Source: Trypanosoma brucei (Eukaryota). From it: a stretch of 64,000 bases of DNA. Positions 1 through 51,000 of the stretch are shown here, piece after piece. The stretch covers positions 1,280,001-1,344,000 of the forward strand of contig CM000207.1 of assembly GCA_000002445.1 (NCBI GenBank). The letters run 5' to 3'. Numbering within the stretch: position 1 is the stretch's first letter; each line of letters begins with the position of its first letter. The notes beneath the pieces were generated by a model, which saw only the letters and a program-made list of their open reading frames with translations, was not told the DNA's origin and ran no database searches. The translations under genes were made by a program, and so were the position numbers.

Positions 1-735
1 TAAGCTCAAACGGATCCGTCGGCACCTCACATAACATCCTGGAAACATTCCGCATGATGCGACACGCCTTAACTTTGAGGTTGAGCGCAGAGATTGCCCA
101 GTTGCGTTTCTCCCCCCCCCCCGCCGCCCTGTTGTTAAGTTCACCGGGGCTTTACGATCGATAACGGGTCCATGCAAACGATAGCAAACACAATCGGGTG
201 TTGCGTTGCCTTCAGTGGTAAATATGCATACATACACACACACATATATATATATATCGAATCAATCATGGCCACTTATATACTCGCTTCGACACCGGGG
301 ACTGCGATACAATGAGCGACGAAACACTTTTTAACCCTTCGCATGCTAGCCGAATGTTGTACAGGCTCAAATGACGCTGCATCGTGTGTTGAGACAACGG
401 AGCTTTGACTCATCGGACGTTTCCAACGTGGGGTGTTCTGCAGTTCATTGATAGAAAAAGTTGTAGGAGCAAGGAAAAAAGAATCGAGCTCCGGCCTGCT
501 TCAACGGAGCATTCAAAGAGCATCACAAACCAAACAGGGCGAAAGGAAATGCAAAGCATAACGGTTTAAACCCCCACAGTGACATGGTTTGGGTGGGTGA
601 TGATAGAGCAGCAGTTGATTGAGCCAGTCGTTGACGGACGGAAAAATGAAGTCGTGGGGAGCAAGCTTGCAGCAGTGTTTGCTTGGTAACAACTGGGAGG
701 AAGAATAGCACAAAGTACCATCTGTACACTTGAAA

Positions 736-2361
736 TTAACACACCAAAAGTTCGCAAATCACTGGTGGGTACGGTTCCCTCAGCCGGTCCGACTTACCAG
801 GCGAAACTTGCGGTAGGGGCGGCCACAAGACACAACCCGGTGCTCGTGTATCACAGAGCTCTAAACCCCCATTCAGCGACACCCAACCCGTCCGCCACGG
901 CACCAGTGTGAGTGTCAGCGTCGTCATTCCGTTCGGCTCAACAACACCCACGGGAACAGCCAGCGGCCCCGCATACACAAACGCTGGCGCCAGCAGCTCT
1001 GGCCGGACCCGCAATGCTAAATCAACGGTTTGTTGCGTGTGGTGGTTGACGATGGCACACTCAAACTTGACAGGGGTTCCCACTTGCGGTGACGTGGGCT
1101 CCATGTTGGTTACATGCAATTCCAACATCGGATGCCTGGGAAGCTCAAGCTGCACGACACCACTACCGTCTCTTCCACTGTCTCCATTTGGCCGCCTCCA
1201 GTCCCAAACCACGTAACCAACGTCGACAATCCGCGGTGCCACGGCACCTACTTGTTCGGCAAGAGGCATCTGTCCCAACATAAGGGAGCGCACCGCCTCT
1301 GGCCTCATGGTAAACTCAAAGAAATATCTACGTTTGTCCTTCGGACTCAGAAAAACGTCGTCTACTACCTCAATTCCACCGCTCAGGTGGCGCACATTGG
1401 CACCACTTATATCACATTCTTCCGCTTCCCCAGCGGAATTTGATTCGCTGTGCGGTCCCGTGGTCACTTGATTCGCCACTGCACTTTTAGAAGACGACAG
1501 TACTTGAAAAGTCTCCCCAACACGTAGCTCCACATTTTCCACAACAATCGGAACCGTTGCGACATTTTGCAGACATACTGTTAATGCATACCTCCTAGAT
1601 GGAAAAAAGGAATCCGATGACCCAACTGAGGCGCTCGGGCCCTTTTCTTGCAACTGCCTATCATTGTCACCACCTCTGCCAAACGACGCGGGGAGAAGAC
1701 GAAGTGACCGACGAACTTCAATTATCGCATGTTCAACCTCAATCGTCGATGCCCATGTCAGTCGTTTTTGCTCCTTGACAACATCAACACATGTGGCCAC
1801 CACGCTGAGGGTATACTGACCAGGGGATGAGAGGAGATGCTCTACAGTAAAGGAGACGTTTCCCCTGGCTTCAATTGCGGGGCACTCATGGTTTACGAGA
1901 GTCACGTGCCGCACGGATGGTGTGACGATATTAATTCGTATTACTGCTGTTGTTAGAGGATACGCTGCAGCGTTGTGGAAACTTAAGATCGCACGAAACG
2001 GTTGACCAACGAAGTGCTTACCGACTACGGACGGCAGCGAAAGAACGGAACTAACGCCTTGCATTGCCAGTCGTGCCGCCTCGCTTCGTCGCTGGGAAAC
2101 CAATGGATCGCCACTCTGTTTGACCGTCACCAGGGGATGGTGGAGCGGATTAGCGAGAACATCAAAAAGAATATCGCCTTCTTCCACTAGTTCTGGTAGG
2201 GACGACTGGGCCAATTCAGGTTTACGAAGTACTGCTGCCCTGACAGTGAGGGGGTTTGCCAAGATGGCGGGCATGTAATCAGTCGCTGAGAATACAGAAA
2301 CTCCCCCATCCTTTTCTCCCTTAGCCCCGTTGAAAGAGGGTGATACACCGTCTTTTGACAT
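736..2361 (-). CDS. hypothetical conserved protein (541 aa); possible Ig-like/beta-sandwich C-terminal region
   Basis: Long uninterrupted ORF on the common coding strand with balanced, non-low-complexity composition. No motif I can name with confidence. Confidence 0.55.
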   Translation of the reverse strand: MSKDGVSPSFNGAKGEKDGGVSVFSATDYMPAILANPLTVRAAVLRKPELAQSSLPELVEEGDILFDVLANPLHHPLVTVKQSGDPLVSQRRSEAARLAMQGVSSVLSLPSVVGKHFVGQPFRAILSFHNAAAYPLTTAVIRINIVTPSVRHVTLVNHECPAIEARGNVSFTVEHLLSSPGQYTLSVVATCVDVVKEQKRLTWASTIEVEHAIIEVRRSLRLLPASFGRGGDNDRQLQEKGPSASVGSSDSFFPSRRYALTVCLQNVATVPIVVENVELRVGETFQVLSSSKSAVANQVTTGPHSESNSAGEAEECDISGANVRHLSGGIEVVDDVFLSPKDKRRYFFEFTMRPEAVRSLMLGQMPLAEQVGAVAPRIVDVGYVVWDWRRPNGDSGRDGSGVVQLELPRHPMLELHVTNMEPTSPQVGTPVKFECAIVNHHTQQTVDLALRVRPELLAPAFVYAGPLAVPVGVVEPNGMTTLTLTLVPWRTGWVSLNGGLELCDTRAPGCVLWPPLPQVSPGKSDRLREPYPPVICELLVC

Positions 2362-2808
2362 TGAGATAGCTAATTTTTTTTTTTAAAGCACGTTACCACA
2401 GTGAGAAAATGCACGTCGAGTGGCCGCGTTGAGACAGAAGAAATGCAAGTGTAAGTGTAAGCACATAACACACCAATTATGAATCGCACCAAGAAAAAGA
2501 CGGTGACAGGGGGAGGCTAAAAATAGACACAATCCCAATTAGAAGCAGGTGGTATGCTATGACAAATGCGTGCAGGAGACAGCAATGTTATACCAGTAAA
2601 CTCAGCAAATGAAGAAATGCAAATAAAGGATGTGGCAGTGTATGGAAAGAGGGCGCAAGCGAGTAGGAACGTATCCCTGCCTCCTTGCACTTGATGATTC
2701 GGACGGCACACACAGGAAATTCAATCGTCCATTCGAGGGGTTCTGTGTGCCATCAACTAACTCCACAGCGTATTTCTTCGTTTAGAGAAAGATGAGCAGC
2801 CAAACTTT

Positions 2809-4539
2809 TTACCAATCGTCATCATCGTCGGTTTTACGTTTCGGCGGAAGTTTTCCGGGAGCCGGTGGTGGCGGTGGCGGAGGAGGAGGAGGAGGCGCAA
2901 CCTTTGGTGGCGGTCCCTTCGGCGGTGGCGCTTTCGGAGGGGGTGGTGGAGGTGGCGGTGGTGGAACTCCACCCTTTTGTGGGGGTGCCGGTGCGTTTCT
3001 GTTTATCGCCATACCCTTCGATGGTCCAGAGGCGGGAGGGCGCCTGCCATGATCGTCGTCTTCATCCTCACCGTCAGAGTGCATTCCCAATATCCCTTTG
3101 CGACGATTCGCAAGCAGAGAAGAAAGCGCATCAAGGTTGCTCTTCGTTGCTGGTTTAGGGGCCGGTTTAACATCCGATTTGGCGGCCGGCTTCGCGGGTG
3201 CCTTTGCTTGCCCGGGTGGTGGTGGTGGAGGAGGCGGGGGTGGAGCCGGTGGTGCATTACCAATTGGTAGTCCTTTCGTCGCAGCTGCTCCGGGTAATGA
3301 AGGCATGGGTGGTGGCGCTTTTATTGGTGGAGGGGGTGGCGCCTTCATTTTTCCCGCAAACATTGGTGGCGGCGGCGGGGGTGGTGGTGGCGCTTTACCG
3401 GGTGGTCGCAATCCACCTGGCGGTGGGGGTGGTGGTGGAAGCCCACTTGGCACGAGAGCACGTGAGGACGGGCCACCTGCTGCATCAGGACCTGCGGTAA
3501 TCGCCAATGCCTCCTGACCTTTCTTTTTATTTCGAGTCGACCCACTGCCACTTCCAACTGAATCACCCCTTTCCCCAAGCCGTCGCTGCCCGCTTGGCGC
3601 GATGTTGTCCTGGTCCTCCAAACTGTAGGCATTCCACGCAACCTCCGCAATGCCTTCAAGGGGCAAGTTTTCTGGGAGATCGTCCATCAGATTCGCCACC
3701 TCCTCCATCAGCGGGACGAAGGCGTATTCATCAGTCGACGCTTGGGTCACGTAATCGCGGTGCACATCTGATGTACCAAGTCGCTGCTTGGTGGCTACGA
3801 CACGCTCTTGCCGCTGTTGCGTCAGCACATCCATTTCATGGTACTCTTTGTAGAGGTTCTCCCTAGTATTAAATAATAATAGCGAGCTGACGCTCATGAG
3901 ATGTGCCGGTAGTCTCCCAAGGCCGCGATCCACACCACTATGATAGCGCCACGTCGCACCAAGCGGCATTAAGCTCTTAACTGTTGCCTCCTGCAATGGA
4001 TGCTGCGGTTTCATTAACCGCTGCTCTGCTCCAGGGCAATCAAGGCGACGGACGGGCTTCGGATATGCATCCTCCCCTTCCTGGCCTCCAAGCTGCCATG
4101 GGTCGGAGCCGTTGCCGCTATCGCCCCCGCTACTGCCCACCACTGGTGATGCACCCGAATCATCTGCTTGAATGATTGCTGGCATGACATACGCCCTTTC
4201 TGGCACACAGCCTCGATCCTCACACGGTGCGCGCCCTATTGGAAGCGTGTAGTGTTTTTGTTTTGGAAATCGAACCCTACTCTTCACCACCATCGCCTCC
4301 CTACGTCCTTGAAGCTGCTCGACTTGATCAGCACAAACCGCGATGCGTCCCTGAAGTTGCTCCAGTGTTTCGCGTGACCGCTCAACAGCCTGTTCAATGT
4401 TACCAAAGACACGTTCGCTTGTTTGATCAAGCCGCCCAAGAGCCCTGATGACGGACAGCATCGACGCATACCCACCATTTGTCAAGGGAACCGGCAGAGT
4501 ATACCCATGTATGGGTGTCATAGTGGTCTCCTTGTACAT
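2809..4539 (-). CDS. proline-rich SCAR/WAVE-like actin nucleation-promoting factor candidate (576 aa)
   Basis: N-terminal segment 'LSVIRALGRLDQTSERVFGNIEQAVERSRETLEQLQGRIAVCADQVEQL' resembles the SCAR/WAVE homology domain ('IRQLGSLSKYAEDIFGELF...RVDRL...V.QL'). Several poly-Pro tracts (PPPPPPPPP) could act as profilin-binding sites. A WH2-like 'LDALSSLLANRRKGILG' is followed by an acidic stretch. The protein ends ...KRKTDDDDDW, an acidic tail with a C-terminal Trp as in VCA domains. Confidence 0.5.
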   Translation of the reverse strand: MYKETTMTPIHGYTLPVPLTNGGYASMLSVIRALGRLDQTSERVFGNIEQAVERSRETLEQLQGRIAVCADQVEQLQGRREAMVVKSRVRFPKQKHYTLPIGRAPCEDRGCVPERAYVMPAIIQADDSGASPVVGSSGGDSGNGSDPWQLGGQEGEDAYPKPVRRLDCPGAEQRLMKPQHPLQEATVKSLMPLGATWRYHSGVDRGLGRLPAHLMSVSSLLLFNTRENLYKEYHEMDVLTQQRQERVVATKQRLGTSDVHRDYVTQASTDEYAFVPLMEEVANLMDDLPENLPLEGIAEVAWNAYSLEDQDNIAPSGQRRLGERGDSVGSGSGSTRNKKKGQEALAITAGPDAAGGPSSRALVPSGLPPPPPPPGGLRPPGKAPPPPPPPPPMFAGKMKAPPPPPIKAPPPMPSLPGAAATKGLPIGNAPPAPPPPPPPPPPGQAKAPAKPAAKSDVKPAPKPATKSNLDALSSLLANRRKGILGMHSDGEDEDDDHGRRPPASGPSKGMAINRNAPAPPQKGGVPPPPPPPPPPKAPPPKGPPPKVAPPPPPPPPPPPAPGKLPPKRKTDDDDDW

Positions 4540-4900
4540 GGAATGTCAAAATATGACACTACAGTTCGCAAGCAATGAGGATAGTACGACCACCTTCCGC
4601 CTGGAATTTCTTCGCAAGGTTGGCCCCTCTGGTTCCCCTTTCCGCCAGTGGCAAGCACACATAATATCATCAAAAGATGGTCGGTATGTTAAATTGAGGG
4701 GGGGGGGCAAAGAGAGAGAGAGAGAGCGAGAAAAAAGGGGGAAAAATTAAACATAAATGCTAGCAAACACCCTGCGTTCCAACATGTGAGTCCAACAACG
4801 TTGCACCACAAGACGACAGACGCAAAAATCATTAAAAGGAACAGTTAAGCAGCAGAAAAGTAGAAATGAACGCTCAATCGAGCAAAAGAGCCGTGGTCGT

Positions 4901-5542
4901 TTAGGCCATGATGTTGTATGGGGTGATCTTACCCTTTGGTGTGATCAGCTTCACGTGGAGGCCGCGTTGTTGCAACTTCCCTGCGTCACGTAACTCCTCG
5001 TACTCATTTCGGAGGATGTTTGTGAAGCCCCAATATTTCGATATCACAATGATTTGCCTACCAGGGAACTTCATCTTAGCACGGCGAAGAGACTCCAGTG
5101 CCTGTGGGACGTATGTGTCCTTTGTCCTCATAGACAAGAGGATCTGACCAATCCGCACGCGGGCGCAGGTCCCATTCGGTTTGCCGTACGACTGCCGCAT
5201 GCCCGTCTGCAGACGATCGGCGCCAGCACACGAAAGCATTTTGTTGATGCGAAGTACGTGGAACGGATGGGCGCGGATACGCATGTGGAAACATTCCTTG
5301 TTGGCACGCTTCACCATATACTTGTTAGCCTGAATACGGGCAGCTTCCAATGCCTCAGATGAGATTTGCTCTAGTTCACGGGACACAACATGGACACACA
5401 CGGGGAACTCATCCACTGGCGCACGGCGCTTACCAATGTCGAAGGTGCGAATCCTCGGGTCCGGTACACCACGACAGAAGCGTGACTTAGGATACGGTTT
5501 GTTCTTGCAGAAGCGGTAGCAACGTGCGGGACGGCGAGCCAT
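4901..5542 (-). CDS. RPL10: 60S ribosomal protein L10 (QM/uL16), copy 1
   Basis: 213 aa beginning '[47 protein letters not shown]', the canonical eukaryotic L10/QM N-terminus. Conserved along its full length. Confidence 0.95.
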
Positions 5543-5568
5543 GACGAATCTTTTGGCCGATCAAACCA

Positions 5569-5640
5569 CTGCAGAAACAAGAAGTATAAGAAAGTACAGA
5601 CAAAGGAAAAAAAGGAAAGATGTGAGGAAAAAGTTATGTT
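5569..5640 (-). promoter_or_regulatory. predicted polypyrimidine tract + AG trans-splice (spliced-leader) acceptor region for RPL10 copy 1 (equivalent: 43165..43236 for copy 2)
   Basis: Minus-strand reading gives 'ctttttcctcacatctttcctttttttcctttgtctgtactttcttatacttcttgtttctgcag|tggtttgatcggcc...ATG'. A pyrimidine run followed by AG about 27 nt upstream of the ATG is the standard kinetoplastid arrangement. The exact AG used is unverified. Confidence 0.4.
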
Positions 5641-5792
5641 AACATCACAATGGATGGAGGATTCACTGTGCACGACTGAGACGGTGGGTCAACATTACGT
5701 GACTCACGTTTAACTTTCAGGCCATTATTTTTAAAAAGGAAATTAAGAAAAAACTTTTCACCTCGGTAATCGCTCACGAAAAGCACTCTCGA

Positions 5793-6359
5793 TCAGTTGG
5801 GATCCATCGTCAGTTCCATGATAGCATTGACGATATCTCCCTTGTTGTTCCGAAGGGCGCGGATTGCTCCAATGCGGTCCGTTTTGCCTTGTGCCATAAC
5901 CACAGCAATCTCCTTATCGTCGAATTCGCCTTCCACAATCTCGACATCGTCGGGAGTCTGTTTGCTCTCAGATGGGGCAGCTGCTGCAGGAGTTTCACCA
6001 GCAAGCTCAGAGGTTTCCTCTCCTGCAGTTCCCACCTCCTCCACAAGGGCGCCAGACACCGCGCGAGCTGCGGCTTCCTGCGTTTGCATCGTTGTGTCGC
6101 CAAGCTGAGCTTCACCAAAGATTAGGAATGTGTTGGTTCCTGGAAAGCGGTACACCTCGGGTTGGTTCACCACAAAAGAGAGCGCCGCACGTTTGCGAAT
6201 GTGTACCTTAGAGATGTTTGGCTCAGGTTTCAAACCCATCTTGGCCATAGCCTTTGCGTAGCGCTTGGATGGCTTGGAAGCCTGTTGAGTGTCAGCAGCT
6301 TCGAGGGTTGGGACCTCGTCGTCTTCCACTGGAGGGTTTTGAACATCGTTAGCGCTCAT
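5793..6359 (-). CDS. NACA: nascent polypeptide-associated complex alpha subunit (NAC-alpha), tandem copy A
   Basis: 188 aa. NAC domain 'KVHIRKRAALSFVVNQPEVYRFPGTNTFLIFGEAQ' and C-terminal UBA-like 'KTDRIGAIRALRNNKGDIVNAIMELT'. Confidence 0.9.
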   Translation of the reverse strand: MSANDVQNPPVEDDEVPTLEAADTQQASKPSKRYAKAMAKMGLKPEPNISKVHIRKRAALSFVVNQPEVYRFPGTNTFLIFGEAQLGDTTMQTQEAAARAVSGALVEEVGTAGEETSELAGETPAAAAPSESKQTPDDVEIVEGEFDDKEIAVVMAQGKTDRIGAIRALRNNKGDIVNAIMELTMDPN

Positions 6360-6760
6360 CGTGATGGTCCGGGTTACTGTTCAGATTGGATGTAGCGAAA
6401 GAAATGTAAGAAGGGAAAAGAAAAGTTGAAATGCGCATAAAACAGGGAGGGAGAAATCTAAAAGCAGACACGCAGAGAAAAACGAAGGAATGAGGCGAAT
6501 GTAGTAGCACAAACATTTTTATAATTTTTGTATCACTTACTCTTTTCTGTTATCACTGTATATTGTTCTCGCACATTCTTTCCTTCGTAACTTACAAGCA
6601 GGTGGCCACGGAAACACTCCTAGGCAGAACCCCACAAATCACTTCTGAGAGTCCACTTCAAATCTCATATTTTTTTCTTACAGTTTTCATTTCCCTCCAT
6701 CCCCCTTATGTCCTTATTGGGGGTTTCACTTACACTGTTGCTCACGAAAAGCACTCTCGA

Positions 6761-7327
6761 TCAGTTGGGATCCATCGTCAGTTCCATGATAGCATTGACG
6801 ATATCTCCCTTGTTGTTCCGAAGGGCGCGGATTGCTCCAATGCGGTCCGTTTTGCCTTGTGCCATAACCACAGCAATCTCCTTATCGTCGAATTCGCCTT
6901 CCACAATCTCGACATCGTCGGGAGTCTGTTTGCTCTCAGATGGGGCAGCTGCTGCAGGAGTTTCACCAGCAAGCTCAGAGGTTTCCTCTCCTGCAGTTCC
7001 CACCTCCTCCACAAGGGCGCCAGACACCGCGCGAGCTGCGGCTTCCTGCGTTTGCATCGTTGTGTCGCCAAGCTGAGCTTCACCAAAGATTAGGAATGTG
7101 TTGGTTCCTGGAAAGCGGTACACCTCGGGTTGGTTCACCACAAAAGAGAGCGCCGCACGTTTGCGAATGTGTACCTTAGAGATGTTTGGCTCAGGTTTCA
7201 AACCCATCTTGGCCATAGCCTTTGCGTAGCGCTTGGATGGCTTGGAAGCCTGTTGAGTGTCAGCAGCTTCGAGGGTTGGGACCTCGTCGTCTTCCACTGG
7301 AGGGTTTTGAACATCGTTAGCGCTCAT
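6761..7327 (-). CDS. NACA: nascent polypeptide-associated complex alpha subunit (NAC-alpha), tandem copy B
   Basis: Protein and DNA identical to copy A (identity block 6740..7443 = 5772..6475). Confidence 0.9.
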   Translation of the reverse strand: MSANDVQNPPVEDDEVPTLEAADTQQASKPSKRYAKAMAKMGLKPEPNISKVHIRKRAALSFVVNQPEVYRFPGTNTFLIFGEAQLGDTTMQTQEAAARAVSGALVEEVGTAGEETSELAGETPAAAAPSESKQTPDDVEIVEGEFDDKEIAVVMAQGKTDRIGAIRALRNNKGDIVNAIMELTMDPN

Positions 7328-8333
7328 CGTGATGGTCCGGGTTACTGTTCAGATTGGATGTAGCGAAAGAAATGTAAGAAGGGAAAAGAAAAGTTGAAAT
7401 GCGCATAAAACAGGGAGGGAGAAATCTAAAAGCAGACACGCAGTGGATAAATAATGTAAAGGAAGATGTGTATGCATGTAGATAAATTCGCTGATTCAAA
7501 TGTAAATATATAAGCAGAGGAAATTCCCCCTCCCTCTCCCCCGATTATAGCTGTCGTTGTCTCGTTTGTGGGATCATGCCGTAGATTGCGTTTGCAGGAC
7601 AAACACCCCTCATGCTTTTCATGAATGCAGCACTAGTCTTGTTATTATTAATATATATATATATATTGCATTCACAGCACAGGCAGGAACCAGGGTAAGA
7701 AATTTACTGATGCCAATGCTACAACATGACTAACTCGCCAAAGGTGAAACAACAGCATTTACCCCCCTTTTTGCTTCGCTCTCCTGCGTCGTCGTACTTC
7801 CCAGCATCTTTCCCGCTGCACGCCAATCGACTACCAATACGGGCGATGGTGTTGGAAAATAACTACAGAGGAATTCCCCTATTTACACGTTACTTAAACT
7901 GCGTTCGTGCCGCTGACCGTCATGATGAAGAAAAAAAATGTGTGCATTGTGTCACCGCTCCCAATGTATGTAGTGAAGTGTAACCGCCAACAACGAAACG
8001 TCAAACGAATGACTTGCTAACAGTGAAGAGAGTAGGATTTCATTCCGCCGCGAAGCCTTTTTTTCTTCTTCGTAGGGAAGATGATCGACACCAAAATATA
8101 TATAAATAAAGGATGCATGTTGAAAAGCGCATGCAACGCGTACTGCACGGCACTTAGGTACTATTGTATGGAAAACATCTGTTCCCCATAGACAACAGTT
8201 CCAGGAGGGGGAAACCGTCTGACGCGATCCAAGTTGTTCTTGACGCGCAGATGTCTATTCGTTCGCTTCACGTAACATTTATGTAGTTTTCACCTCACTG
8301 TGGAGGTACTCAGACAACAATGCAGAGAACACA

Positions 8334-8336
<3 letters not shown>

Positions 8337-8368
<32 letters not shown>
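8337..8368. repeat. (TA)16 microsatellite; similar (TA)n at 245-258, 9721-9746, 25681-25706, 26518-26538, 31283-31300, 35476-35500
   Basis: Seen directly. Confidence 0.95.
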
Positions 8369-8371
<3 letters not shown>

Positions 8372-8411
8372 ACTCTTTATTACTGCAACGTAAAATTTAA
8401 AGTGGCCATGA

Positions 8412-9704
8412 TCACACCACTTCATCAGCCCCCCGTTTCCTCTGCTGATGTTCGCCCGGTACTGTTTCACACCTAAAGCTGTTAGATGCACCCGTGTTGC
8501 GTGGAGACAGTGGTGTGGTTGCCCCACGTTCAGCATCGTCTTCCTCATTCGCAACCCCAAACAACATGGCTTCGTATACCCGAGATGCGGTGCAAAACAT
8601 GATGACTGATGCAAGAAATAAGGAGATAAAGATGACTTGTATGGGTATCACCGCAACAGCTGCTGAAGGATTAAAGCCGTCAGTCCATTTGTTAATCTCA
8701 ACATTGGCTTTTGCCGCAATCATGCATGCCACATATATCATACTGCTGTAAACCACGAAAAGAAACGCAGAGGTACTCTTCTGAGATGCTTGCTGGTTTG
8801 GCTGCTCCACTTTGCTACAGATCATGCAGAAACATAAGTGAAGCAGTGCCTTCAAACCAAGACACGCAATGAGTGGGGAGAACACAATCCAGAAGGAAAG
8901 TGGTTCGTCCTTACTTTCCTCACTCTTTTGCATAGCACGAAGCATTAGAAGCGTGAAGAAGGCAATAGCACACCCCTCCTCAAATAACACCATGACAACA
9001 AACAGACAATATTTCTTGCGCGAAAACGTCACCTCTCCACTGCCATCTTCGGAATTCTGCACAAACCTTGACGGGAACAGATGAGGTATGATATGAAGGA
9101 CACGCACTGCGTAAAACGCTATGGCCGGCGAAAGGGCAACAGGCCATGACAGCGCACCGCACAACCCAGCAACGAATGTTGCAATACTACCAACGAATAG
9201 TAGGATTTCAACCCCGACACATACACATAAAAAGTCCAACTGTTTGATTCCAGCAGCCAACAAACCTAAAGCGAGTAATATGGGGGGTGCCAGGGCAATC
9301 CAAAGAGGAATAAACACCACGGGCCATTTCCAACTCAATTCGTAGTCCAATCGAACAACAACAAGCTCTAACTGGAGTAACAGCAGTAGTATCAACATCA
9401 TAACAAGGAAACACAGGAAACGGAAGGCGGACGGGTTCACAGGTACGTTCATTTCATTAAGTTTGTTTAGGGTAGCAACGCCCTCCCTTCCAAAGGTGTT
9501 GTACGTGCGTCGTTGCTGCTCATCGCTAAGGATGCTGTACGCCTCTTGCAAACGAGTGAACTGCTCTGTGGTTGTGCCATCCGTTTTATCGGGGTGAAGA
9601 ATGAGTGCTAGTCGATGGTACGCACGCTTAATTTCCTGTGGCGTGGCATTTTCGTTCACTTCCATAAGTGTGTACAGAGAGCCACTGCATTTTCGACCCA
9701 GCAT
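8412..9704 (-). CDS. J-domain (DnaJ-like) polytopic membrane protein
   Basis: N-terminal J domain 'SLYTLMEVNENATPQEIKRAYHRLALILHPDKT' with the HPD tripeptide. It is followed by at least 6 long hydrophobic stretches that are predicted TM helices. Confidence 0.8.
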   Translation of the reverse strand: MLGRKCSGSLYTLMEVNENATPQEIKRAYHRLALILHPDKTDGTTTEQFTRLQEAYSILSDEQQRRTYNTFGREGVATLNKLNEMNVPVNPSAFRFLCFLVMMLILLLLLQLELVVVRLDYELSWKWPVVFIPLWIALAPPILLALGLLAAGIKQLDFLCVCVGVEILLFVGSIATFVAGLCGALSWPVALSPAIAFYAVRVLHIIPHLFPSRFVQNSEDGSGEVTFSRKKYCLFVVMVLFEEGCAIAFFTLLMLRAMQKSEESKDEPLSFWIVFSPLIACLGLKALLHLCFCMICSKVEQPNQQASQKSTSAFLFVVYSSMIYVACMIAAKANVEINKWTDGFNPSAAVAVIPIQVIFISLFLASVIMFCTASRVYEAMLFGVANEEDDAERGATTPLSPRNTGASNSFRCETVPGEHQQRKRGADEVV

Positions 9705-11296
9705 CTTTACACTTTTTGGTTATATATATATATATATATATATAGTGTTACACCCTATCTTCCTCTCCTACGCCGTTGCTCAATCGAACACAACTTAGCG
9801 GAATAATATTCGCTGTCACGAAAGAACAGGAGCTCCCCCCTTTTTTTTTGCTTCAGTTGTCACTGCGCCCGTGCTATCGTGTCCGTGTCCGTGTCCGTCA
9901 GTAAGGCTCAAGACAAGATAAACAAAACGTGCCTAAGTATTTATGTATTTACTTGCCCACTATAAATATAAATATATATATTTATATTCCCTTTTCCCTT
10001 TTCCCTTTCTGCCAGAATGTTCTCTCACGGAATTAGTCAATATTCTGCTTCGTATTCTTTCATTAAATTAAAAGATGCAGGGGACAAAGGAAGAAAAAGA
10101 GACAAAAATTAAATATTGCGGTATTCATAGTAAAGAAATGGATAAGAATTGTGAAGGTAATGACGTCAATAATACACCGACAGCACATAGTTGTGCATTG
10201 GAAGCTGTTGAAAACAAAAACCTGAGTAACATGAACGGAGATACGGAAGATCGAAGGGTGAGAACAAAAAAAGCCAGGGGGGGGGAAGAAAAAGAAAAAA
10301 AACAAAAAAAAAGATAAAGATAAAAAAAACTTTAAATGAAAGGTAAAAAAAAAGAAAAAATGAGAAGGTAAATGAATAACCGGCAAAAGAAAATACCTAA
10401 GCTCAACCGGAGGCGCTCTATTTTGCTTTTTTTTCTTTTTACAGTAAGCTACTGAGATCATACCTCCCTAGTTTTTGTTAAAGGTGAAAAAAGGGGGGAC
10501 AAGGAAAGCGGTTAATGGAAGGAAAGAAAAGATTTAAGAAGAAAATGGTAGTACCAAAATATCTCACATACTCAAAAAAAAAAAAAAGAAAATTCTAAAA
10601 GAACGGAAGCCAATCATAGAAAAGGGAAGGAGCAAAGAAGAAGAATAGAAGTTGTATAGTGAACAACCGGTGGTAGAAGTGCTCACACTGCCATGTTTTA
10701 TTTTCCTTGTGGGCGGCGACCCAACCAACAACCCATGTGTTTGCGAATGAAACAACAAAAGCACAAACAGTTAAAAAGAAAAGGAAAAAAAAAAGCATAA
10801 ACACACAAACATAAATATATACACATACATAAAAGCATGGTCATTTAATTTTCATTCGCACGTCTAAATTATGCTCTCCATCTCCTATCTCCTTCCCCGT
10901 ATTTCATGTGAGTTGGGCCCACAAAAGAAAAAAAGAGAGATCATTGGTTTCGTTCCTTACTCCCCTGTTGAGCAAAAGCCTAGTTGTCATCCGTAATAAT
11001 AGAGCAATTCTTCACTTATACGCCTTTTTCAAATTACACAACCACACTGTTTGGTTGCATTTCTTCCTTCCTTCTTCTTTTCTTTTCTTCTTCCTTCGAT
11101 TTGGTTACCCATTCCCCCATAAGACATAAAGTGTGATAATGATCTTGTATTGATGAAACGACAGTAGCGCCTGTAACCCTTTCCATTTTTCTCTTTTTTT
11201 CTTTTTTATTGCAAACTTAGAGCTTTAAACAACCGAGAGTGAATGCACACAAACGCGCTTATACGGACATACACCACCATGCGAGCATTGACGCAT

Positions 11297-13225
11297 TTAT
11301 TTTACACGCTTTGGTGGCTCCCTGCTGAGATGTTTCAGAGACCCGCCCCCAGCCGCAACAGTTGCAACTCCTTTCGTTTTGTTTGTACGATTTGAATCAG
11401 GCTGAGGTCTCGCCGTGCGTGCAGTCGCCCGCTCGCTGGTAGGGGTTCTGGAGGAAGTAGAACGACCTACAGTTGGTTTATCAGTTCTCAAAAAACGTGC
11501 TTTATTTTGATTCGCCGTGTCACGAGTGGCGATGGTGCGCCTTGCAGAAATACGCGGGGCAACGGAACTTTGACCACCGTCCGCTAGACCGCGTTTTTCT
11601 CTTTTCATTTGAGTTGCTGCCAGAAGCTCCGGGTGCGGAGCCGCGAGGAATGTTTGGGGCTCTCGAAGCATGGCTCCACCTTCCGAACATGCATCCGCAG
11701 CATCGGAATCTTGAAAAAATTCTGCATCGTTCTCAGGTACAGCTGTGGCGAGTGCCGCCGATGCGGTCTTGGATTGGTGTTGTTTGTCCTGTTGATATGA
11801 GTGTAAACATCTATTGTCATTTCCTCTAGTATCTTCAATATGTCCATGCAGTGACCTGGGAAATGGTTCCTCTACATCTTCCTCTAACTCCGCTAATCTC
11901 GTCTCAAGCGGTGTGTTTGGTAGGACGTCGGTCACTACACCCACAGGAACTGCACTTCCTTCATCTTCATACTGTCTCGTTCGTTGATCAAATCCAATGT
12001 GCGATGCCATCGGTATTGAAAACCGTGCATTAGACATTGTTAGTTGCGACGGGGCTCGCAACCGCTCTTCACTCAGCATGCTTCTATGTACATCTGTCGT
12101 ATGTGATAAGCTGCGTCCGAGTCTGCTCGCGAGACCAACGCTGTAGCGCACACCCGACTGATAGCGCCACCGCAGGCCACTGTCACCGACTAAAATATGG
12201 ATGTTGGACGTTGATGACAAGTTCGCGACAGCGCGCTGGGCCGCAACCGTTTCTTCATTTTGTCTAACGTCGATCAGGCGCAGGGATCTGAGGCACCGCA
12301 TCTTTTCCTTGTCTTTGCAACCAACGAGCTCCTCCACACATTTGCGCATGCCTATTTGTGACATGTTGTTTTCCGAGAGCCTTATATAACATAGCGACTT
12401 ACAGAAGGTTTGTTCCGCGGCCTCCGCTGCCTGTGATACGGGGGGGTTGCTATCGTTTTCAGCCATGAGAAACTGAAGCGATGTGTAGTTAGTGCTCAAC
12501 CTCTCACGTGCCGAGGGAGACAAACAAAACGACATAATTGAGGATGACCGCGATCTCTGTTCATCGTGTACCAATGACACCGCTGAATGCTGGTGCCTCG
12601 AGTTACCCACGTGCTCCAGAAAGTCACGCACAATCCACGGCCCACTCGCGTCGTCCAACAAACAATGCTGAAGATCCAACAGAAAGAGTTCGTACCGCCC
12701 TATTGGCAACGTACATTCAGCGTCAAGCGGAGTGCTTTCCCTCTTCACCCTCGCCAATTGATCCTCTCTGCCCTCGTCCGACACGTTGTCCTTCATTGCA
12801 AGAACCAATTTGGACAGAAGTGCCGAAAGACATTGCGTAAATACCCGACGGTGTTCGGCAACGTGAAGACGGCGGCCAATGGACGCAGAAGAATCCACCG
12901 CAAGTCCAACACGACCCGCACACTTTGGGCAACACAAAACTTTCTTGAGACGTAAAAATGCCTTGGGGTCTCTCGTGTCAAGTTCGCTTAGAGCAGTTAA
13001 TGTGCACTCCGGAATGAGTACCTCCGGTTCAACACCAAAATCAGACCTCAGAATGGATTCCGGTGCCTCGGGAGAACTCCTGTCCGCAAGCCGCAGCTCC
13101 GTGTACCATTTTAGTTCTTCGGAATCCCTTCCCCCATCGGCTGCTGGGGTCGACTGGTTTTCTTCTTTGGTACAGTCGGGTGCTGCAACACATGTGCGTA
13201 ACACAATGGAAAGATCACTCCCCAT
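11297..13225 (-). CDS. hypothetical protein (642 aa), Leu-rich; N-terminus MGSDLS fits the N-myristoylation consensus MGxxxS
   Basis: Long ORF on the coding strand. Leu-rich segments (LFLLDLQHCLLDD, LRSLRLIDV) are suggestive of LRR-like repeats. Family not recognised. Confidence 0.5.
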   Translation of the reverse strand: MGSDLSIVLRTCVAAPDCTKEENQSTPAADGGRDSEELKWYTELRLADRSSPEAPESILRSDFGVEPEVLIPECTLTALSELDTRDPKAFLRLKKVLCCPKCAGRVGLAVDSSASIGRRLHVAEHRRVFTQCLSALLSKLVLAMKDNVSDEGREDQLARVKRESTPLDAECTLPIGRYELFLLDLQHCLLDDASGPWIVRDFLEHVGNSRHQHSAVSLVHDEQRSRSSSIMSFCLSPSARERLSTNYTSLQFLMAENDSNPPVSQAAEAAEQTFCKSLCYIRLSENNMSQIGMRKCVEELVGCKDKEKMRCLRSLRLIDVRQNEETVAAQRAVANLSSTSNIHILVGDSGLRWRYQSGVRYSVGLASRLGRSLSHTTDVHRSMLSEERLRAPSQLTMSNARFSIPMASHIGFDQRTRQYEDEGSAVPVGVVTDVLPNTPLETRLAELEEDVEEPFPRSLHGHIEDTRGNDNRCLHSYQQDKQHQSKTASAALATAVPENDAEFFQDSDAADACSEGGAMLREPQTFLAAPHPELLAATQMKREKRGLADGGQSSVAPRISARRTIATRDTANQNKARFLRTDKPTVGRSTSSRTPTSERATARTARPQPDSNRTNKTKGVATVAAGGGSLKHLSREPPKRVK

Positions 13226-13845
13226 CTTCCTCTTGAGTATTTAATCCGCCCTTCCACCCCTCAAAATAAAAAAAAAATGAATAAATAAACAACTGCGAGG
13301 TCAACAAATCTCACAAAAAACTCACTCAATTACGGATGTTTTAGTCTCTTGCAGCTCCTAGTCTTGCTTTTTAACAGACTTCAGCAACTGTTGGATTGAA
13401 TGCCTAGCCTACTATATACAATGACAACCAAGTATACTACGTATCTACTGAATATATGTGAATGCGTATTTACCTAACCACTCTTTTTTTTTTGCAGCAA
13501 ATCACCAAATCAGCAAAAAAAAAAAGAAAATAAACAATAAGCACAAGATACATTATTGTAGCCAGAAGGAAAGACAAAGGATGCGTGGCCCACCTTCACA
13601 TCTCGCATACAGTTCATAAATTCTTCGCGTGACCAAGAGAGCACGGAAATGAAATGGAGGGAGGGAGTGAAGGTTGGGCGTGACGACAAAACCCACAACT
13701 AAATGTGAACTTCAATTACACACGAAAAATCTGTGTCGATTCTAAATATATCCCAACAGCATATTATACATTCCGGTAGTGAATCAAGCCCTAATAACTG
13801 CCCCTCCCCCCCCCCCGCTCCATGCAACCTGCACCCACAAAAAAA

Positions 13846-14610
13846 CTACAGGCAATACTTCCGCTCAGTGAAGTATGTGTGGCGACCGAACCGCGACCGC
13901 CCCTCTACGGGCTCTACGGGCGTTTTACCGTGGACAGTCATCGTACATCCTGTTTCCGGGTTACCAGTATATAAGGTGATTGGCTCGTCTGAGAGATAAT
14001 CATTGCAAAGTGAATCAACCACTGGTAACTCCTCCGGCAGGCAGTGAACCTTCTGGTAGGTTGAAAGATACACATTGTTACCATCCATTCCAACGTTTGT
14101 CAGTTGCTTACGCTCAGCTTCTGTCGCGTTCTTTTCCTCACGTGCGGCGTTCAGGGCCACTTGAAGCAGCACTCGACTGCGTGCCCCCAAATCTGGACGT
14201 CGAAGTGTACGGAGATCAGCATTCTTTTCGCAATAGTCCTCACGATTTGTTGTTTGCAGGAATCGAGAGTGGGGATTTCGTGCATCGGATGTTACATAAG
14301 GCGTAGATGAATAACCGCCAGTAAACCGATCGTTTTTCCCTGGGCGAATGGCATCGAGACTCGCTCGCAGTACTGTAGTCGAGGTAAAGTCCATTTGCCC
14401 TTTGGGGTCTGATGGAACTGGTTGTTGCGCGAGGAGATCATCCTCCAGCACTTTTTCCTCCTGCCAGTTTCCACAGAGGACCTTTCGCGAGCACGTTGCA
14501 CCGTCTTTGTGCCGCTCCTTGTTGTAATGTTTTTCTTCAATCCATGTACCTGCGGGGCTGCATGTATCAATTGGCACGTACGGTTTCCGAGAGCGCAAGA
14601 GATGTGACAT
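13846..14610 (-). CDS. hypothetical protein (254 aa)
   Basis: ORF on the coding strand flanked by typical intergenic polypyrimidine regions. No recognisable domain. Confidence 0.45.
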   Translation of the reverse strand: MSHLLRSRKPYVPIDTCSPAGTWIEEKHYNKERHKDGATCSRKVLCGNWQEEKVLEDDLLAQQPVPSDPKGQMDFTSTTVLRASLDAIRPGKNDRFTGGYSSTPYVTSDARNPHSRFLQTTNREDYCEKNADLRTLRRPDLGARSRVLLQVALNAAREEKNATEAERKQLTNVGMDGNNVYLSTYQKVHCLPEELPVVDSLCNDYLSDEPITLYTGNPETGCTMTVHGKTPVEPVEGRSRFGRHTYFTERKYCL

Positions 14611-15439
14611 GTCAGGTCTCTTTTCCCCCTCTCTTCTCTTCTGAGGAGCTCTACGGTGCTGTATTATTTTTTTTTGTGTGTGTGTGTGTTTGTATGTGCA
14701 CCTTTTTATTCTCCTTTACAACACAATAACAGCTTCCTCCTCTCGGTTGCTGGAGTTGCTGGAGTTTATCCCTTGTAATGAATTGTTGCTGCGAATGAAA
14801 TGATGGTAAGAGAGATCAGGGGATTCAAAGTATCGTAATAACTGTTAAAGCATAATCTCAACATTTCTACAATGTTGTGGGTGTCGTGAGGAAACGTCTC
14901 ACTGTCCCCACTTTCCATATTCTTTTTGTTGTTATTATTGCACTCTCCATCCCCTCGTATGGATTGGATGTATTTTTTTTTTCTTTCGCTTTAACTTTCC
15001 TCTTCCCTTTTTTTTTAAAAAAAGACTGTTAAGCGGCGTTATCGGGAATTCGAACATTACTTTAACTAATCTTAAACCGCATCGAACGCTTGTCCTCACC
15101 GTTTTTTTCCCTCCGATTCAAACAACCGTAAACTCCTCACCCTCCCTCTCTTTTTGCGCAACGGCACATGCGAGAGAAATCAATACAAGAGACGGACAGA
15201 AACATTCAGTTTTATGATTGATTCTCTTTCCTTACCACTCACAGTACAATGTGGCTACGGAATGATGAGTTGTGGGCCAAGCGAAGGATCTGCAAGAAGC
15301 CGAAGTAAAAAAAAACCAAGGGCGAAGCGACACACCACAACCTAGACCTTGAGAAACGAGTCAAACACTACGCTCCGAGTGAATTATCCACCGTGAATTC
15401 CCCATAAATGCAAGCAAGACGGGCTTCCGCTCTGCTTTC

Positions 15440-17416: not shown

Positions 17417-17681
17417 ATTTTTTCGGTGCTTACCCTATCCTGTATCACCCACACATAGGATAAAAAGAATAATATTAAGAAGTTAACGAAGACAGCAACA
17501 CTGACAAATAGGGATAACCGAAGTGAATTGTAACGAAACTGAGGTAAACGGTAAGGGAAGCGAATAAGTTCATATCCCATATAACAACACAAACACCTTC
17601 GAGTTCAAGAAGGAAACAAATAAATAGTACTGCACCTACCCGTTGAATGGTGTCACACTCCCGATGTTTTGTGTCCTTTGG

Positions 17682-18782: not shown

Positions 18783-19538
18783 CTCAATCTTAATCCCTCA
18801 ACACTTCCTTTCCTACATGCATGCAGAGAGGCAGCAATCAAGCAGAAATAAATTGCAGGAACGTGTGATGCATGAGTATCATTGAAGGAGGGACATGGAA
18901 ATAGTATCGTTCTTTTTGCAAAAAAAAATCCCATTAAAACGACATGTGGTCTTCTTCCGTTCCTTTGCAAAAAAAAAAAGAAAAAGCGGCGCCCCCCACC
19001 GCAACATTTTTTTTTAATTGCAGTTAAGGGTTAATTCAGAAGCGCCATAGAACCATCTGGGGCAGCACAGCAGATATATATATATGAAAGGAAAGTAATA
19101 GATGCAGAGACGTCTTTTCATTTCTGTTCAAAAATTAAAATATGGTGGCAAAGAAGGGGTTTAAACAGTTATCTATCACAAATAAAGAACGAAACACTGT
19201 TGCTGTGAAATTGAATCTATGTAGGAAAATATGAAAAATCATTCTCTCGCGTTCTTTTTTTTTTTTTAATGTTTCTAGGTAAAAAAGAAAAATGAAAAAA
19301 GATGAGCGACTGTACGTGTATCTAAAACGCACTCACATAACACCAAATGAAAAAAAATGTATGCGAAACTTAAGCAAATATGTTTCCGTGATATTTTACC
19401 CACCCGTGAACAGGAATCAGCGGGTGTCAGTGATGAAAAATTTGTGGAAGAACGAAATGATAAAACACACACATACACACAAAAAAAATCCACAGGCACG
19501 GTGAACAGAGAGTTTCTTGTCTATTCTTCAATGTCACT

Positions 19539-21200: not shown

Positions 21201-21343
21201 TAGCCGAAGAATATCCGAACGCTGAGTGGTACGTTGCGAGAACGTTCAAAAAAGTCAACTACCCAAATACGTCAGTGACAAACTGTAAAGTGGTGCTAAC
21301 CCACGTGTTGTTCTTGCTTTGGAGCAAAAAAAATTACATTCTG

Positions 21344-34063: not shown

Positions 34064-34065
<2 letters not shown>

Positions 34066-34101
<36 letters not shown>
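34066..34101. repeat. (CA)18 microsatellite
   Basis: Seen directly. A shorter (GT)n occurs at 14680-14695. Confidence 0.95.
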
Positions 34102-34105
<4 letters not shown>

Positions 34106-39561: not shown

Positions 39562-39590
39562 GGGAATGGGAATGGGAATGGGAATGGGAA
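39562..39590. repeat. (GGGAAT)5 hexamer repeat in a 1.65-kb intergenic region
   Basis: Seen directly. Confidence 0.9.

Positions 39591-50967: not shown

Positions 50968-51000
<33 letters not shown>

What the first reader, a model, noticed from the sequence alone, without database searches (positions are those of the whole stretch)
2809..4539. Candidate SCAR/WAVE-type Arp2/3 activator with WHD-like N-terminus and VCA-like acidic, terminal-Trp tail
Residues about 25-75 (coords about 4317..4470) read 'LSVIRALGRLDQTSERVFGNIEQAVERSRETLEQLQGRIAVCADQVEQL'. This tracks the WAVE homology domain core ('IRQLGSLSKYAEDIFGELF...RVDRLQVKVTQL') position by position. The centre carries four poly-Pro blocks (up to 12 consecutive Pro) that could bind profilin. 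Near the C-terminus a WH2-like amphipathic segment 'LDALSSLLANRRKGILG' (about 3046..3141) is followed by 'DGEDEDDD'. The protein ends 'KRKTDDDDDW' (2812..2832), an acidic patch with a terminal tryptophan, the hallmark Arp2/3-binding A-motif. Nucleation-promoting factors are generally reported as scarce or hard to recognise in kinetoplastids, so a protein combining WHD-like, poly-Pro, WH2-like and acidic-W elements is worth checking even if databases label it 'hypothetical'.
Basis: partly seen in the sequence, partly recalled or inferred. Interest (0 to 1): 0.7.

Follow-up and report, generated by a model that had tools for sequence, protein, structure and literature searches.

The report
Trypanosome WASH protein, not SCAR/WAVE
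The gene is the already catalogued Trypanosoma brucei copy of WASH, the endosomal member of the WASP family of Arp2/3 activators; it is not a SCAR/WAVE protein, and its one unusual feature, the lack of an actin-binding WH2 motif, was described in 2012.

Summary
The ORF is real: 2809..4539, minus strand, 576 aa. The protein is identical to T. brucei TREU927 XP_827149.1 (UniProt Q38EF1, 'WASH1 WAHD domain-containing protein').

Pfam assigns it to WASH_WAHD (PF11945) at E = 1.5e-30, 107 bits against a cut-off of 24. Every hit listed in the two searches that report Pfam domains (69 and 87) carries PF11945. None is SCAR/WAVE.

The resemblance to the WAVE homology domain is genuine but covers only one helix of about 55-60 residues. 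The same N-terminus scores higher against WASH N-termini.

The 'WH2-like' segment LDALSSLLANRRKGILG is the WASH central (C) motif. No WH2 (V) motif exists, so the tail reads C, acidic patch, proline-rich linker, DDDDDW.

Kollmar et al. 2012 already reported that Euglenozoa have only WASH and that Trypanosoma WASH lacks WH2.

Most likely function: the Arp2/3-activating subunit of an endosomal WASH complex. Profilin-actin bound to the polyproline tracts probably stands in for the missing V motif. That last step is inferred, not shown.

Verdict: superfamily and function broadly right, subfamily wrong, already known, low interest.

The parts
2809..4539 (-). Complete CDS of T. brucei WASH (WASHC1 orthologue), 576 aa plus TAA stop
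   Evidence: ORF list. The sequence is an exact match to XP_827149.1 / EAN76819.1 / UniProt Q38EF1. Pfam PF11945 matches at 107 bits.
4698..4746 (-). 49-nt polypyrimidine tract 158 nt upstream of the ATG; a likely trans-splicing signal
   Evidence: Read directly from the sequence. The role is inferred from the general architecture of trypanosomatid genes.
4489..4524 (-). N-terminal beta-hairpin, aa 6-17 (GY.VP.PLT)
   Evidence: AlphaFold2 strands 6-10 and 13-17. G12 and P18 are conserved among kinetoplastid homologues.
4252..4464 (-). First WAHD block, aa 26-96: a long helix (24-76) plus the KS..FP motif.
   Evidence: Pfam WASH_WAHD profile positions 18-88, E = 1.4e-12. AlphaFold2 helix with pLDDT of 90-94 over most of its length. 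Similarity to the WAVE1 helix.
3940..4209 (-). Poorly conserved acidic/Ser-Gly insertion typical of kinetoplastids, aa ~111-200, splitting the WAHD domain
   Evidence: Alignment A1 shows gaps here in all non-kinetoplastid WASH. pLDDT is below 50. Only 17% of columns are invariant among five Trypanosoma species.
3586..3939 (-). Second WAHD block, aa 201-318, with the WASH signature motifs GLGRLP..SVSSLLLFNT.EN.YK.Y (3841..3927) and IAPS (3592..3603)
   Evidence: Pfam WASH_WAHD profile positions 143-265, E = 6.6e-18. G206, L207, G208, P211, L220, L221, F223, N224, Y230, A314 and P315 are invariant in 32 sequences.
3214..3444 (-). Central proline-rich region, aa 366-442, with Pro runs of 7, 9, 5, 3 and 10; candidate profilin-binding sites
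   Evidence: Run counts. The region aligns with the proline-rich region of all WASH homologues. Profilin binding is inferred.
3079..3141 (-). C (central/connector) motif, aa 467-487, SNLDALSSLLANRRKGILGMH.
   Evidence: It aligns with metazoan DLMSDLF.KL.MRRKGISG. A C-motif HMM hits aa 472-483. AlphaFold2 helix 468-483. 80% of columns are invariant among five Trypanosoma species, the highest of any region.
3052..3078 (-). Proximal acidic patch, aa 488-496, SDGEDEDDD, with no aromatic residue
   Evidence: Read from the sequence. S488 and D489 are conserved in kinetoplastid homologues.
2842..3051 (-). Proline-rich linker between the C motif and the terminal A motif, aa 497-566, with Pro runs of 10, 3, 3 and 11. 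Its length varies between species.
   Evidence: K(A/G)PPPP-type repeats are expanded in T. brucei, T. congolense and T. vivax but not in T. cruzi marinkellei or T. melophagium. 6% of columns are invariant.
2812..2841 (-). Terminal A motif, aa 567-576, KRKTDDDDDW: an acidic run ending in the Arp2/3-binding tryptophan
   Evidence: W576 is conserved in at least 90% of 32 homologues. All kinetoplastid homologues but one end ...D/E-D-W; P0014 ends DDDDFD.

Best explanation
The ORF encodes the Trypanosoma brucei orthologue of WASH (WASHC1). WASH is the endosomal member of the WASP family and, according to the literature, the only member present in Euglenozoa.

Shown here:
- Homology to the WASH family along the whole WAHD domain.
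- Presence of a proline-rich region, a WASH-type C motif and an acidic tail ending in Trp.
- Absence of a WH2 (V) motif.

Inferred from established knowledge of human and Dictyostelium WASH:
- The N-terminal hairpin, the long helix and the conserved WAHD core dock the protein into a WASH regulatory complex (strumpellin, SWIP, CCDC53, FAM21). That complex holds it on endosomal membranes.
- The C helix and the acidic/Trp tail bind Arp2/3 and switch it on. The result is branched actin patches that support sorting and fission of endosomal recycling carriers.

Because no V motif is present, the first actin monomer cannot be delivered by WASH itself. The most likely substitute is profilin-actin captured on the five polyproline tracts of 7-11 residues that lie before C and between C and A. 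Trypanosomatid profilin carries its own WH2-like helix.

My estimates: WASH identity about 0.97; Arp2/3 activation on endosomes about 0.7; actin delivery by profilin about 0.3.
For: - Pfam WASH_WAHD matches at E = 1.5e-30, 107 bits against a cut-off of 24.2, in two blocks.
- The sequence is identical to UniProt Q38EF1, 'WASH1 WAHD domain-containing protein'.
- All 69 and 87 database hits that come with Pfam labels carry PF11945, and many are named WASH complex subunit 1. A library-wide HMMER search gives 970 hits at E <= 0.001; that library carries no names, and those I named or inspected are WASH.
- The WASH signature motifs are invariant in a 32-sequence alignment.
- The C motif aligns to metazoan ..KL.MRRKGISG. 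Within Trypanosoma it is the most conserved part of the protein, at 80% invariant columns, while the linkers stand at 5-17%.
- The terminal Trp is conserved.
- The gene order RPL10-WASH-TRAPPC13 is kept on an environmental kinetoplastid contig.
- Kollmar 2012 reports that Euglenozoa contain only WASH, that Trypanosoma WASH lacks WH2, and that CA domains were identified in kinetoplastid WASH (PMC3298513).
- Strumpellin is reported in Leishmania and Trypanosoma (PMC11684767).
- ARP2/3 knock-down was compared between two T. brucei strains after a screen found actin-cytoskeleton genes more fitness-relevant in one of them (bioRxiv 10.64898/2026.06.27.734978).
- Leishmania profilin needs its polyproline-binding site and its WH2-like motif for endosomal sorting. 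Its authors suggest that profilin works mainly with Arp2/3 (PMC10907219).
Against: - No V motif is present. In other systems, CA fragments alone are weak Arp2/3 activators (textbook knowledge of WASP-family proteins).
- Nothing was tested here, and I found no paper, on localisation, complex formation or Arp2/3 activation for the T. brucei protein.
- Partner subunits other than strumpellin were not checked.
- The model of the full protein is poor (mean pLDDT 55.6, pTM 0.25).
- The polyproline expansion in the C-to-A linker is confined to T. brucei, T. congolense and T. vivax. It does not track loss of the V motif, which weakens the idea that the linker evolved to compensate.
Confidence: 0.85

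Rival explanations
1. SCAR/WAVE-type activator. The N-terminal helix would be a WAVE homology domain assembling with Abi, HSPC300, Nap1 and Sra1, and the tail would be a full VCA.
For: There is real local similarity between aa 26-87 and the WAVE1 helix 33-94: BLASTP E = 2e-5, hhalign probability 69%, 0 of 2000 shuffles. Trypanosoma WASH helices score higher against WAVE1 (58-77) than other WASH helices do (34-39).
Against: - The similarity stops at the helix. WAVE1 residues 86-180 find no counterpart.
- The second block, aa 201-318, is WASH-specific.
- The N-terminus scores higher against seven WASH N-termini (68-116) than against WAVE1 (58).
- No WAVE protein appears among the 69 and 87 Pfam-labelled hits, all of which carry PF11945.
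- In a PDB profile search, WAVE1 is hit only through its V region.
- No WH2 motif is present.
- The literature states that Euglenozoa have only WASH.
Confidence: 0.02
2. A WASH-derived scaffold that no longer promotes nucleation. Having lost the V motif, it would only tether Arp2/3, or serve the WASH complex in an actin-independent role.
For: The V motif is absent in all five Trypanosoma species, in Trypanoplasma (Cryptobia) borreli and in related environmental kinetoplastids. Kollmar 2012 reports that Leishmania WASH even lacks a hydrophobic residue in its A motif.
Against: The C motif is the most conserved segment within Trypanosoma, and the terminal DDDDW is kept. That argues for continued selection on Arp2/3 binding. 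Polyproline-profilin offers an alternative route for delivering actin (PMC10907219).
Confidence: 0.12
3. An unrelated proline-rich or formin-like protein whose acidic/Trp end is coincidental.
For: The protein is 18% proline overall and 38% over aa 380-576. The PDB profile search is dominated by polyproline matches.
Against: No FH2 domain or any family other than WASH_WAHD is found, even at E <= 10. Homology to WASH extends over about 190 non-proline residues.
Confidence: 0.01

Closest known systems
WASH / WASHC1 of animals and Dictyostelium (Pfam PF11945 WASH_WAHD)
   Same: Shared features: the N-terminal helix; the KYP/FP motif; GLGRLP..SSLLLFNT.EN.YK.Y; IAPS; the proline-rich region; the C motif L...L..RRKGI.G; a spacer between C and A; and a terminal acidic run with Trp.
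   Different: This protein has no WH2/V motif. It carries an acidic insertion of about 90 aa inside the WAHD domain. An extra acidic patch follows C directly. The C-to-A spacer is about 70 aa and holds two long polyproline runs.
Trypanosoma WASH as described by Kollmar, Lbik and Enge 2012 (BMC Res Notes 5:88; T. cruzi shown in their Figure 5)
   Same: This is the same orthologous group. The paper states that Trypanosoma WASH proteins 'miss the WH2 domain' and that CA domains were identified in kinetoplastid WASH.
   Different: Nothing substantive differs. My analysis adds one point. The V motif is also missing in Cryptobia/Trypanoplasma borreli and several environmental kinetoplastids. It is retained in Neobodo designis and Papus ankaliazontas.
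SCAR/WAVE (human WAVE1, PDB 3P8C chain D)
   Same: Same superfamily and same logic: an N-terminal helix buried in a regulatory complex, polyproline, and a C-terminal Arp2/3-activating tail. The first helices are measurably similar. That fits the proposal of Jia et al. 2010 (PNAS 107:10442) that the WASH and WAVE complexes are structurally related. I cite that paper from my own knowledge: it could not be read here, and only its reference entry was seen.
   Different: The rest of the WAVE homology domain, the basic region and the WH2 motif have no counterpart here. The WASH-specific core is present instead.
N-WASP / WASP VCA
   Same: The junction between the C helix and the acidic run...GILGMHSDGEDEDDD, resembles ...KAIHSSDEDEDEDD. 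The WASH profile aligns to the V and C regions of N-WASP.
   Different: This protein has no WH1 or GBD domain and no V motif. Its Trp-bearing end is separated from C by a proline-rich linker.

Membership tests
WASH (WASHC1) | WAHD domain: Pfam PF11945 above the gathering threshold | tested here: met
   107.1 bits against a cut-off of 24.2, E = 1.5e-30. The match falls in two blocks, aa 26-96 and ~201-318.
WASH (WASHC1) | Family signature motifs between the WAHD helix and the proline-rich region (GLGRLP..SSLLLFNT.EN.YK.Y; IAPS) | tested here: met
   These columns are invariant or nearly invariant in a 32-sequence alignment spanning kinetoplastids, animals and other eukaryotes.
WASH (WASHC1) | Database searches return WASH proteins as the nearest relatives | tested here: met
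   69 of 69 and 87 of 87 hits carry PF11945, and named hits are WASH complex subunit 1. The HMMER representative search gave 970 hits at E <= 0.001 but carries no names or Pfam labels; named members of the top clusters are WASH1 of Neobodo and Papus.
WASH (WASHC1) | Proline-rich region followed by a VCA tail: V (WH2) motif | tested here: not met
   A WH2 HMM built from 45 non-kinetoplastid WASH V motifs scores -4.0 in this protein. It scores 3.8 to 11.5 in six relatives: P0008, P0013, P0014, Neobodo, Papus and the unidentified P0138. There is no Pfam WH2 hit. This is the documented exception for Trypanosoma. WH2 is shared by the whole superfamily and does not define WASH specifically, so homology-based membership stands. 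The architecture is CA, not VCA.
WASH (WASHC1) | C (central) motif of WASH type | tested here: met
   LDALSSLLANRRKGILG aligns with MSDLF.KL.MRRKGISG. The HMM hit is at aa 472-483 and is weak because the motif is short (domain E = 0.02 among 15-19 sequences).
WASH (WASHC1) | Acidic motif with a C-terminal tryptophan | tested here: met
   The protein ends DDDDDW, and W576 is conserved in at least 90% of sequences.
WASH (WASHC1) | Assembly into the pentameric WASH regulatory complex (strumpellin, SWIP, CCDC53, FAM21) | not testable with these tools
   The literature reports strumpellin genes in Leishmania and Trypanosoma (PMC11684767). The other subunits were not checked. The AlphaFold2 model is largely disordered outside the hairpin, the long helix and the C helix, as expected for a subunit that folds on assembly.
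WASH (WASHC1) | Stimulates Arp2/3 nucleation; localises to endosomes | not testable with these tools
   This needs biochemistry and cell biology. I found no paper on the T. brucei protein.
SCAR/WAVE | Complete WAVE/SCAR homology domain (about 170 aa: helix, following conserved segment, basic region) | tested here: not met
   Only the helix matches: 62 residues by BLASTP and 53 columns by hhalign at probability 69%. Nothing matches WAVE1 residues 86-180. Pfam has no model for this domain.
SCAR/WAVE | Nearest relatives are WAVE proteins | tested here: not met
   No WAVE protein appears, where every hit carries the WASH domain. The N-terminus scores 68-116 against WASH and 58 against WAVE1.
SCAR/WAVE | Abi, Nap1, Sra1 and HSPC300 partners in the same genome | not tested
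   The window holds none of them. The literature says Euglenozoa have only WASH.
Formin | FH2 domain after the proline-rich FH1 | tested here: not met
   No FH2 hit at E <= 10.

The most novel reading that the evidence does not exclude
Trypanosoma WASH is a 'split VCA' activator. It lost its own WH2 motif in a kinetoplastid ancestor and now relies in trans on profilin-actin docked on its polyproline tracts. In trypanosomatids, profilin has acquired a WH2-like helix that binds the same actin cleft. On this view profilin, rather than WASH itself, supplies the monomer that primes the Arp2/3 branch.

My data add that the V motif is retained in Neobodo and Papus. It is absent in Trypanoplasma, in Trypanosoma and in environmental kinetoplastids with the same gene order. 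The loss is therefore older than the genus.

The authors of the profilin study already hint that profilin works mainly with Arp2/3. The link to a WH2-less WASH has not been tested.
Probability: 0.25. Interest if true: 0.55.

Novelty: already known. Interest (0 to 1): 0.15.

Why it matters
As an annotation result it matters little. The protein is already named in UniProt, and its family, including the missing WH2 motif, was described in 2012.

The biological interest lies elsewhere. WASH appears to be the only WASP-family activator available to T. brucei, an organism whose survival in the blood depends on very fast endocytosis and recycling of its surface coat. No functional study of the protein turned up in the literature I could search. 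A natural activator that has C and A motifs but no V motif, paired with a profilin that carries a WH2-like helix, would make a clean system for one question: how much of Arp2/3 activation needs monomer delivery by the activator itself?

Tried and rejected
- Sequence search of the PDB with the protein found nothing. The same search with a family profile returned only polyproline noise plus the V/C regions of N-WASP and WAVE1. I found no solved structure matching the WAHD domain.
- AlphaFold2 on a 32-sequence alignment gave confidence only for the hairpin, the long helix and the C helix. Foldseek against the PDB with that model gave zero matches, so I ran no further fold searches.
- BLASTP of the N-terminus against bear WASHC1 reported no alignment of the helix (E = 52). 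That briefly suggested the helix was closer to WAVE. Smith-Waterman with shuffling showed this was a heuristic miss: 93 against WASH versus 58 against WAVE1.
- Pfam cannot test for a WAVE homology domain, because WAVE1 1-180 itself matches no Pfam family.
- Leishmania WASH was not recovered by any of the three protein searches. I could not check the published statements about its V and A motifs.
- Derivery & Gautreau 2010, Veltman & Insall 2010 and Jia et al. 2010 are not held in the library.
- I could not obtain a trypanosomatid profilin sequence. The test of co-evolution between the profilin insertion and loss of the WASH V motif was therefore not run.
- The ORFs on the plus strand across 3098..3866 (poly-Gly and similar) are shadows of the polyproline coding sequence and were dismissed.
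Full report
**The observation**

The window holds a 576-codon ORF at 2809..4539 on the minus strand, with ATG start and TAA stop.
- The helix segment is aa 28-76 (4312..4458).
- LDALSSLLANRRKGILG is aa 469-485 (3085..3135).
- DGEDEDDD is aa 489-496 (3052..3075).
- KRKTDDDDDW is aa 567-576 (2812..2841).

Proline runs are 7, 9, 5, 3 and 10 in the centre and 10, 3, 3 and 11 in the tail. The longest run is therefore 11, not 12. The protein is 18% proline overall. A 49-nt polypyrimidine tract lies 158 nt upstream of the ATG (4698..4746), as expected for a trans-spliced trypanosomatid gene. All convincing long ORFs in the window are on the minus strand, which indicates a single polycistronic unit.

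**Identity**

The amino-acid sequence is an exact match to XP_827149.1 / EAN76819.1 of Trypanosoma brucei brucei TREU927. GenBank labels it 'hypothetical protein, conserved', and UniProt Q38EF1 labels it 'WASH1 WAHD domain-containing protein'.

Pfam gives one family only, WASH_WAHD (PF11945), at E = 1.5e-30 and 107 bits against a cut-off of 24.2. The match is in two blocks. Residues 26-96 match profile positions 18-88 (E = 1.4e-12). Residues ~201-318 match profile positions 143-265 (E = 6.6e-18).

Database searches agree:
- A single-sequence search returned 69 proteins, all carrying PF11945. They include orthologues in T. congolense (71% identity), T. melophagium (annotated WASH1), T. cruzi marinkellei, T. 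vivax and Cryptobia/Trypanoplasma borreli, plus animal 'WASH complex subunit 1' proteins.
- A profile of the kinetoplastid WAHD regions returned 87 proteins, again all PF11945.
- A library-wide HMMER search gave 970 hits at E <= 0.001. That library carries no names or Pfam labels. Named members of the nearest new clusters are WASH1 of Neobodo designis and Papus ankaliazontas, plus an unnamed Diplonema papillatum fragment.

No SCAR/WAVE protein appears in the two Pfam-labelled searches. An environmental kinetoplastid contig keeps the same gene order, RPL10-WASH-TRAPPC13, as the window.

**The WAVE resemblance**

- BLASTP of residues 1-105 against it gives 27 bits, E = 2e-5, 15/62 identities with no gaps.
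- Smith-Waterman gives 58 against a shuffle mean of 26.3 +/- 4.4, with 0 of 2000 shuffles reaching it.
- A 32-sequence WASH profile aligns to WAVE1 33-85 with hhalign probability 69%.

The similarity ends with the helix. The same N-terminus scores 68-116 against seven WASH N-termini from animals and protists. The second conserved block (GLGRLP..SVSSLLLFNT.EN.YK.Y ... IAPS) is WASH-specific and invariant across 32 sequences.

The helix resemblance is best read as the deep relationship between the WASH and WAVE complexes proposed by Jia et al. 2010. I cite that from my own knowledge: the paper is not held and only its reference entry was seen.

**The tail**

Across WASH proteins from outside kinetoplastids the tail has four parts:
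- a V motif (R..LL..IR....LK);
- about 40 residues later, the C motif (MSDLF.KL.MRRKGISG);
- a spacer;
- an acidic run ending in Trp.

A C-motif HMM built from non-kinetoplastid WASH hits aa 472-483. AlphaFold2 predicts a helix at 468-483.

A V-motif HMM built from 45 non-kinetoplastid WASH proteins scores -4.0 or nothing in T. brucei, the four other Trypanosoma species, the environmental relatives of P0007 (whose contig keeps the window's gene order), and the Trypanoplasma group. It scores 3.8 to 11.5 in Neobodo designis, Papus ankaliazontas, three environmental kinetoplastid-like sequences and one further unidentified homologue, P0138 (names).

The architecture is therefore: proline-rich region, C motif, acidic patch without an aromatic residue, a proline-rich linker of about 70 aa, then KRKTDDDDDW.

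Within five Trypanosoma species the share of invariant columns differs sharply by region:

| Region | Invariant columns |
|---|---|
| C motif | 80% |
| WAHD core | 68% |
| Long helix | 48% |
| Terminal motif | 38% |
| Linkers and the insertion | 5-17% |

This is the pattern expected if complex assembly and Arp2/3 binding are the selected functions.

**What is already published**

Kollmar, Lbik and Enge 2012 make four relevant statements (PMC3298513):
- Euglenozoa contain only a WASH homologue.
- CA and VCA domains were identified in kinetoplastid WASH proteins.
- Leishmania WASH has no hydrophobic residue in its A motif.

Recent Leishmania papers mention only 'a protein with weak homology to WASH-1' (PMC10907219 and PMC12472444). 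I found no functional study of the T. brucei protein. The finding is therefore already known in kind and in detail. What I add is small: loss of the V motif extends to Trypanoplasma and to several environmental kinetoplastids, while Neobodo and Papus keep it. The loss therefore predates the genus Trypanosoma.

**Mechanism**

Shown:
- WASH homology across the WAHD domain.
- C and A motifs under constraint.
- No V motif.
- Abundant polyproline.

Inferred from the human and Dictyostelium systems:
- The hairpin, the long helix and the WAHD core incorporate the protein into a WASH regulatory complex on endosomes. Strumpellin genes are reported in Leishmania and Trypanosoma (PMC11684767).
- C plus the acidic/Trp tail activates Arp2/3 to build branched actin for endosomal sorting and carrier fission.
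- Arp2/3 is present in T. brucei. A 2026 screen found actin-cytoskeleton genes more fitness-relevant in one strain than another, and the authors followed up with RNAi of ARP2/3 components (bioRxiv 10.64898/2026.06.27.734978).

The open step is monomer delivery without a V motif. Trypanosomatid profilin has a WH2-like helical insertion that binds the actin target-binding cleft. In L. mexicana it needs both that motif and its polyproline-binding site for endosomal sorting. Its authors suggest it works mainly with Arp2/3 (PMC10907219). Profilin-actin docked on the tracts of 7-11 prolines that lie before C and between C and A is the most plausible substitute.

One observation argues against the linker having evolved for that purpose. 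Its polyproline expansion is confined to T. brucei, T. congolense and T. vivax, and is absent from T. cruzi marinkellei and T. melophagium, which also lack the V motif.

**Rivals**

- SCAR/WAVE is excluded on domain content and nearest relatives.
- A scaffold-only WASH that no longer activates Arp2/3 is possible, but the strong conservation of the C motif and the terminal Trp makes it unlikely.
- A formin or an unrelated proline-rich protein is excluded: no FH2 and no other family is found even at E <= 10.

**Verdict**

The subfamily is wrong, since it is WASH rather than WAVE, and so is the reading of one motif, which is C rather than WH2. The feature is already known, and interest is low.

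Noticed in passing
window 4901..5542 and 42497..43138 (both minus strand): There are two copies of the ribosomal protein L10/QM gene (Pfam Ribosomal_L16), 37.6 kb apart. The coding sequences are 642/642 nt identical. The duplicated block runs about 4875..5680 at 96% identity including flanks. This suggests a recent duplication or gene conversion.
   Followed up: partly
window 736..5542 (minus strand); contig of P0007 (JGI sample 3300059473): The gene order RPL10 - WASH - TRAPPC13-like is conserved between T. brucei and an unidentified environmental kinetoplastid whose WASH also lacks a WH2 motif.
   Followed up: partly
window 4291..4470 (aa 24-83): The N-terminal helices of Trypanosoma WASH are clearly more similar to the human WAVE1 helix than other WASH helices are. 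Smith-Waterman scores are 58 for T. brucei and 77 for T. cruzi marinkellei, against 34-39 for bear, Trypanoplasma and other WASH proteins. I have no explanation for this.
   Followed up: partly
window 2842..3051 (aa 497-566) and orthologues P0002-P0005: The linker between the C motif and the terminal acidic/Trp motif is built of K(A/G)PPPP-like units. It varies widely in length and proline content between species: long polyproline in T. brucei, T. congolense and T. vivax, almost none in T. cruzi marinkellei and T. melophagium.
   Followed up: partly
P0133 (Neobodo designis), P0136 (Papus ankaliazontas), P0012 (Cryptobia/Trypanoplasma borreli), P0006-P0014, P0076: Among kinetoplastid WASH proteins the WH2 motif is kept in Neobodo, Papus and three environmental sequences. 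It is missing in Trypanoplasma, Trypanosoma and their closest environmental relatives. The published 'Trypanosoma-specific' loss is therefore broader and older.
   Followed up: yes
window 1..64000: All convincing long ORFs lie on the minus strand and no tRNA genes were found. Recognisable neighbours include a DnaJ/Tmemb_185A fusion (8412..9704), pescadillo (15440..17416), peptide deformylase (17682..18782), a Y_phosphatase2 protein (21344..22789), rhomboid (23345..24661), a RING protein (37219..38976), DnaJ (40628..42010), adenylate kinase (43569..44186), a CLC channel (52370..55186), RRP36 (55431..56063) and TCF25 (58504..61029). Several ORFs of 250-650 aa have no Pfam match, for example 11297..13225, 13846..14610, 19539..21200, 27686..29362 and 46195..47253.
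   Followed up: no
window 3098..3866 (plus strand): Plus-strand ORFs of 100-139 aa rich in Gly are antisense shadows of the polyproline-coding region. They are not genes.
   Followed up: yes
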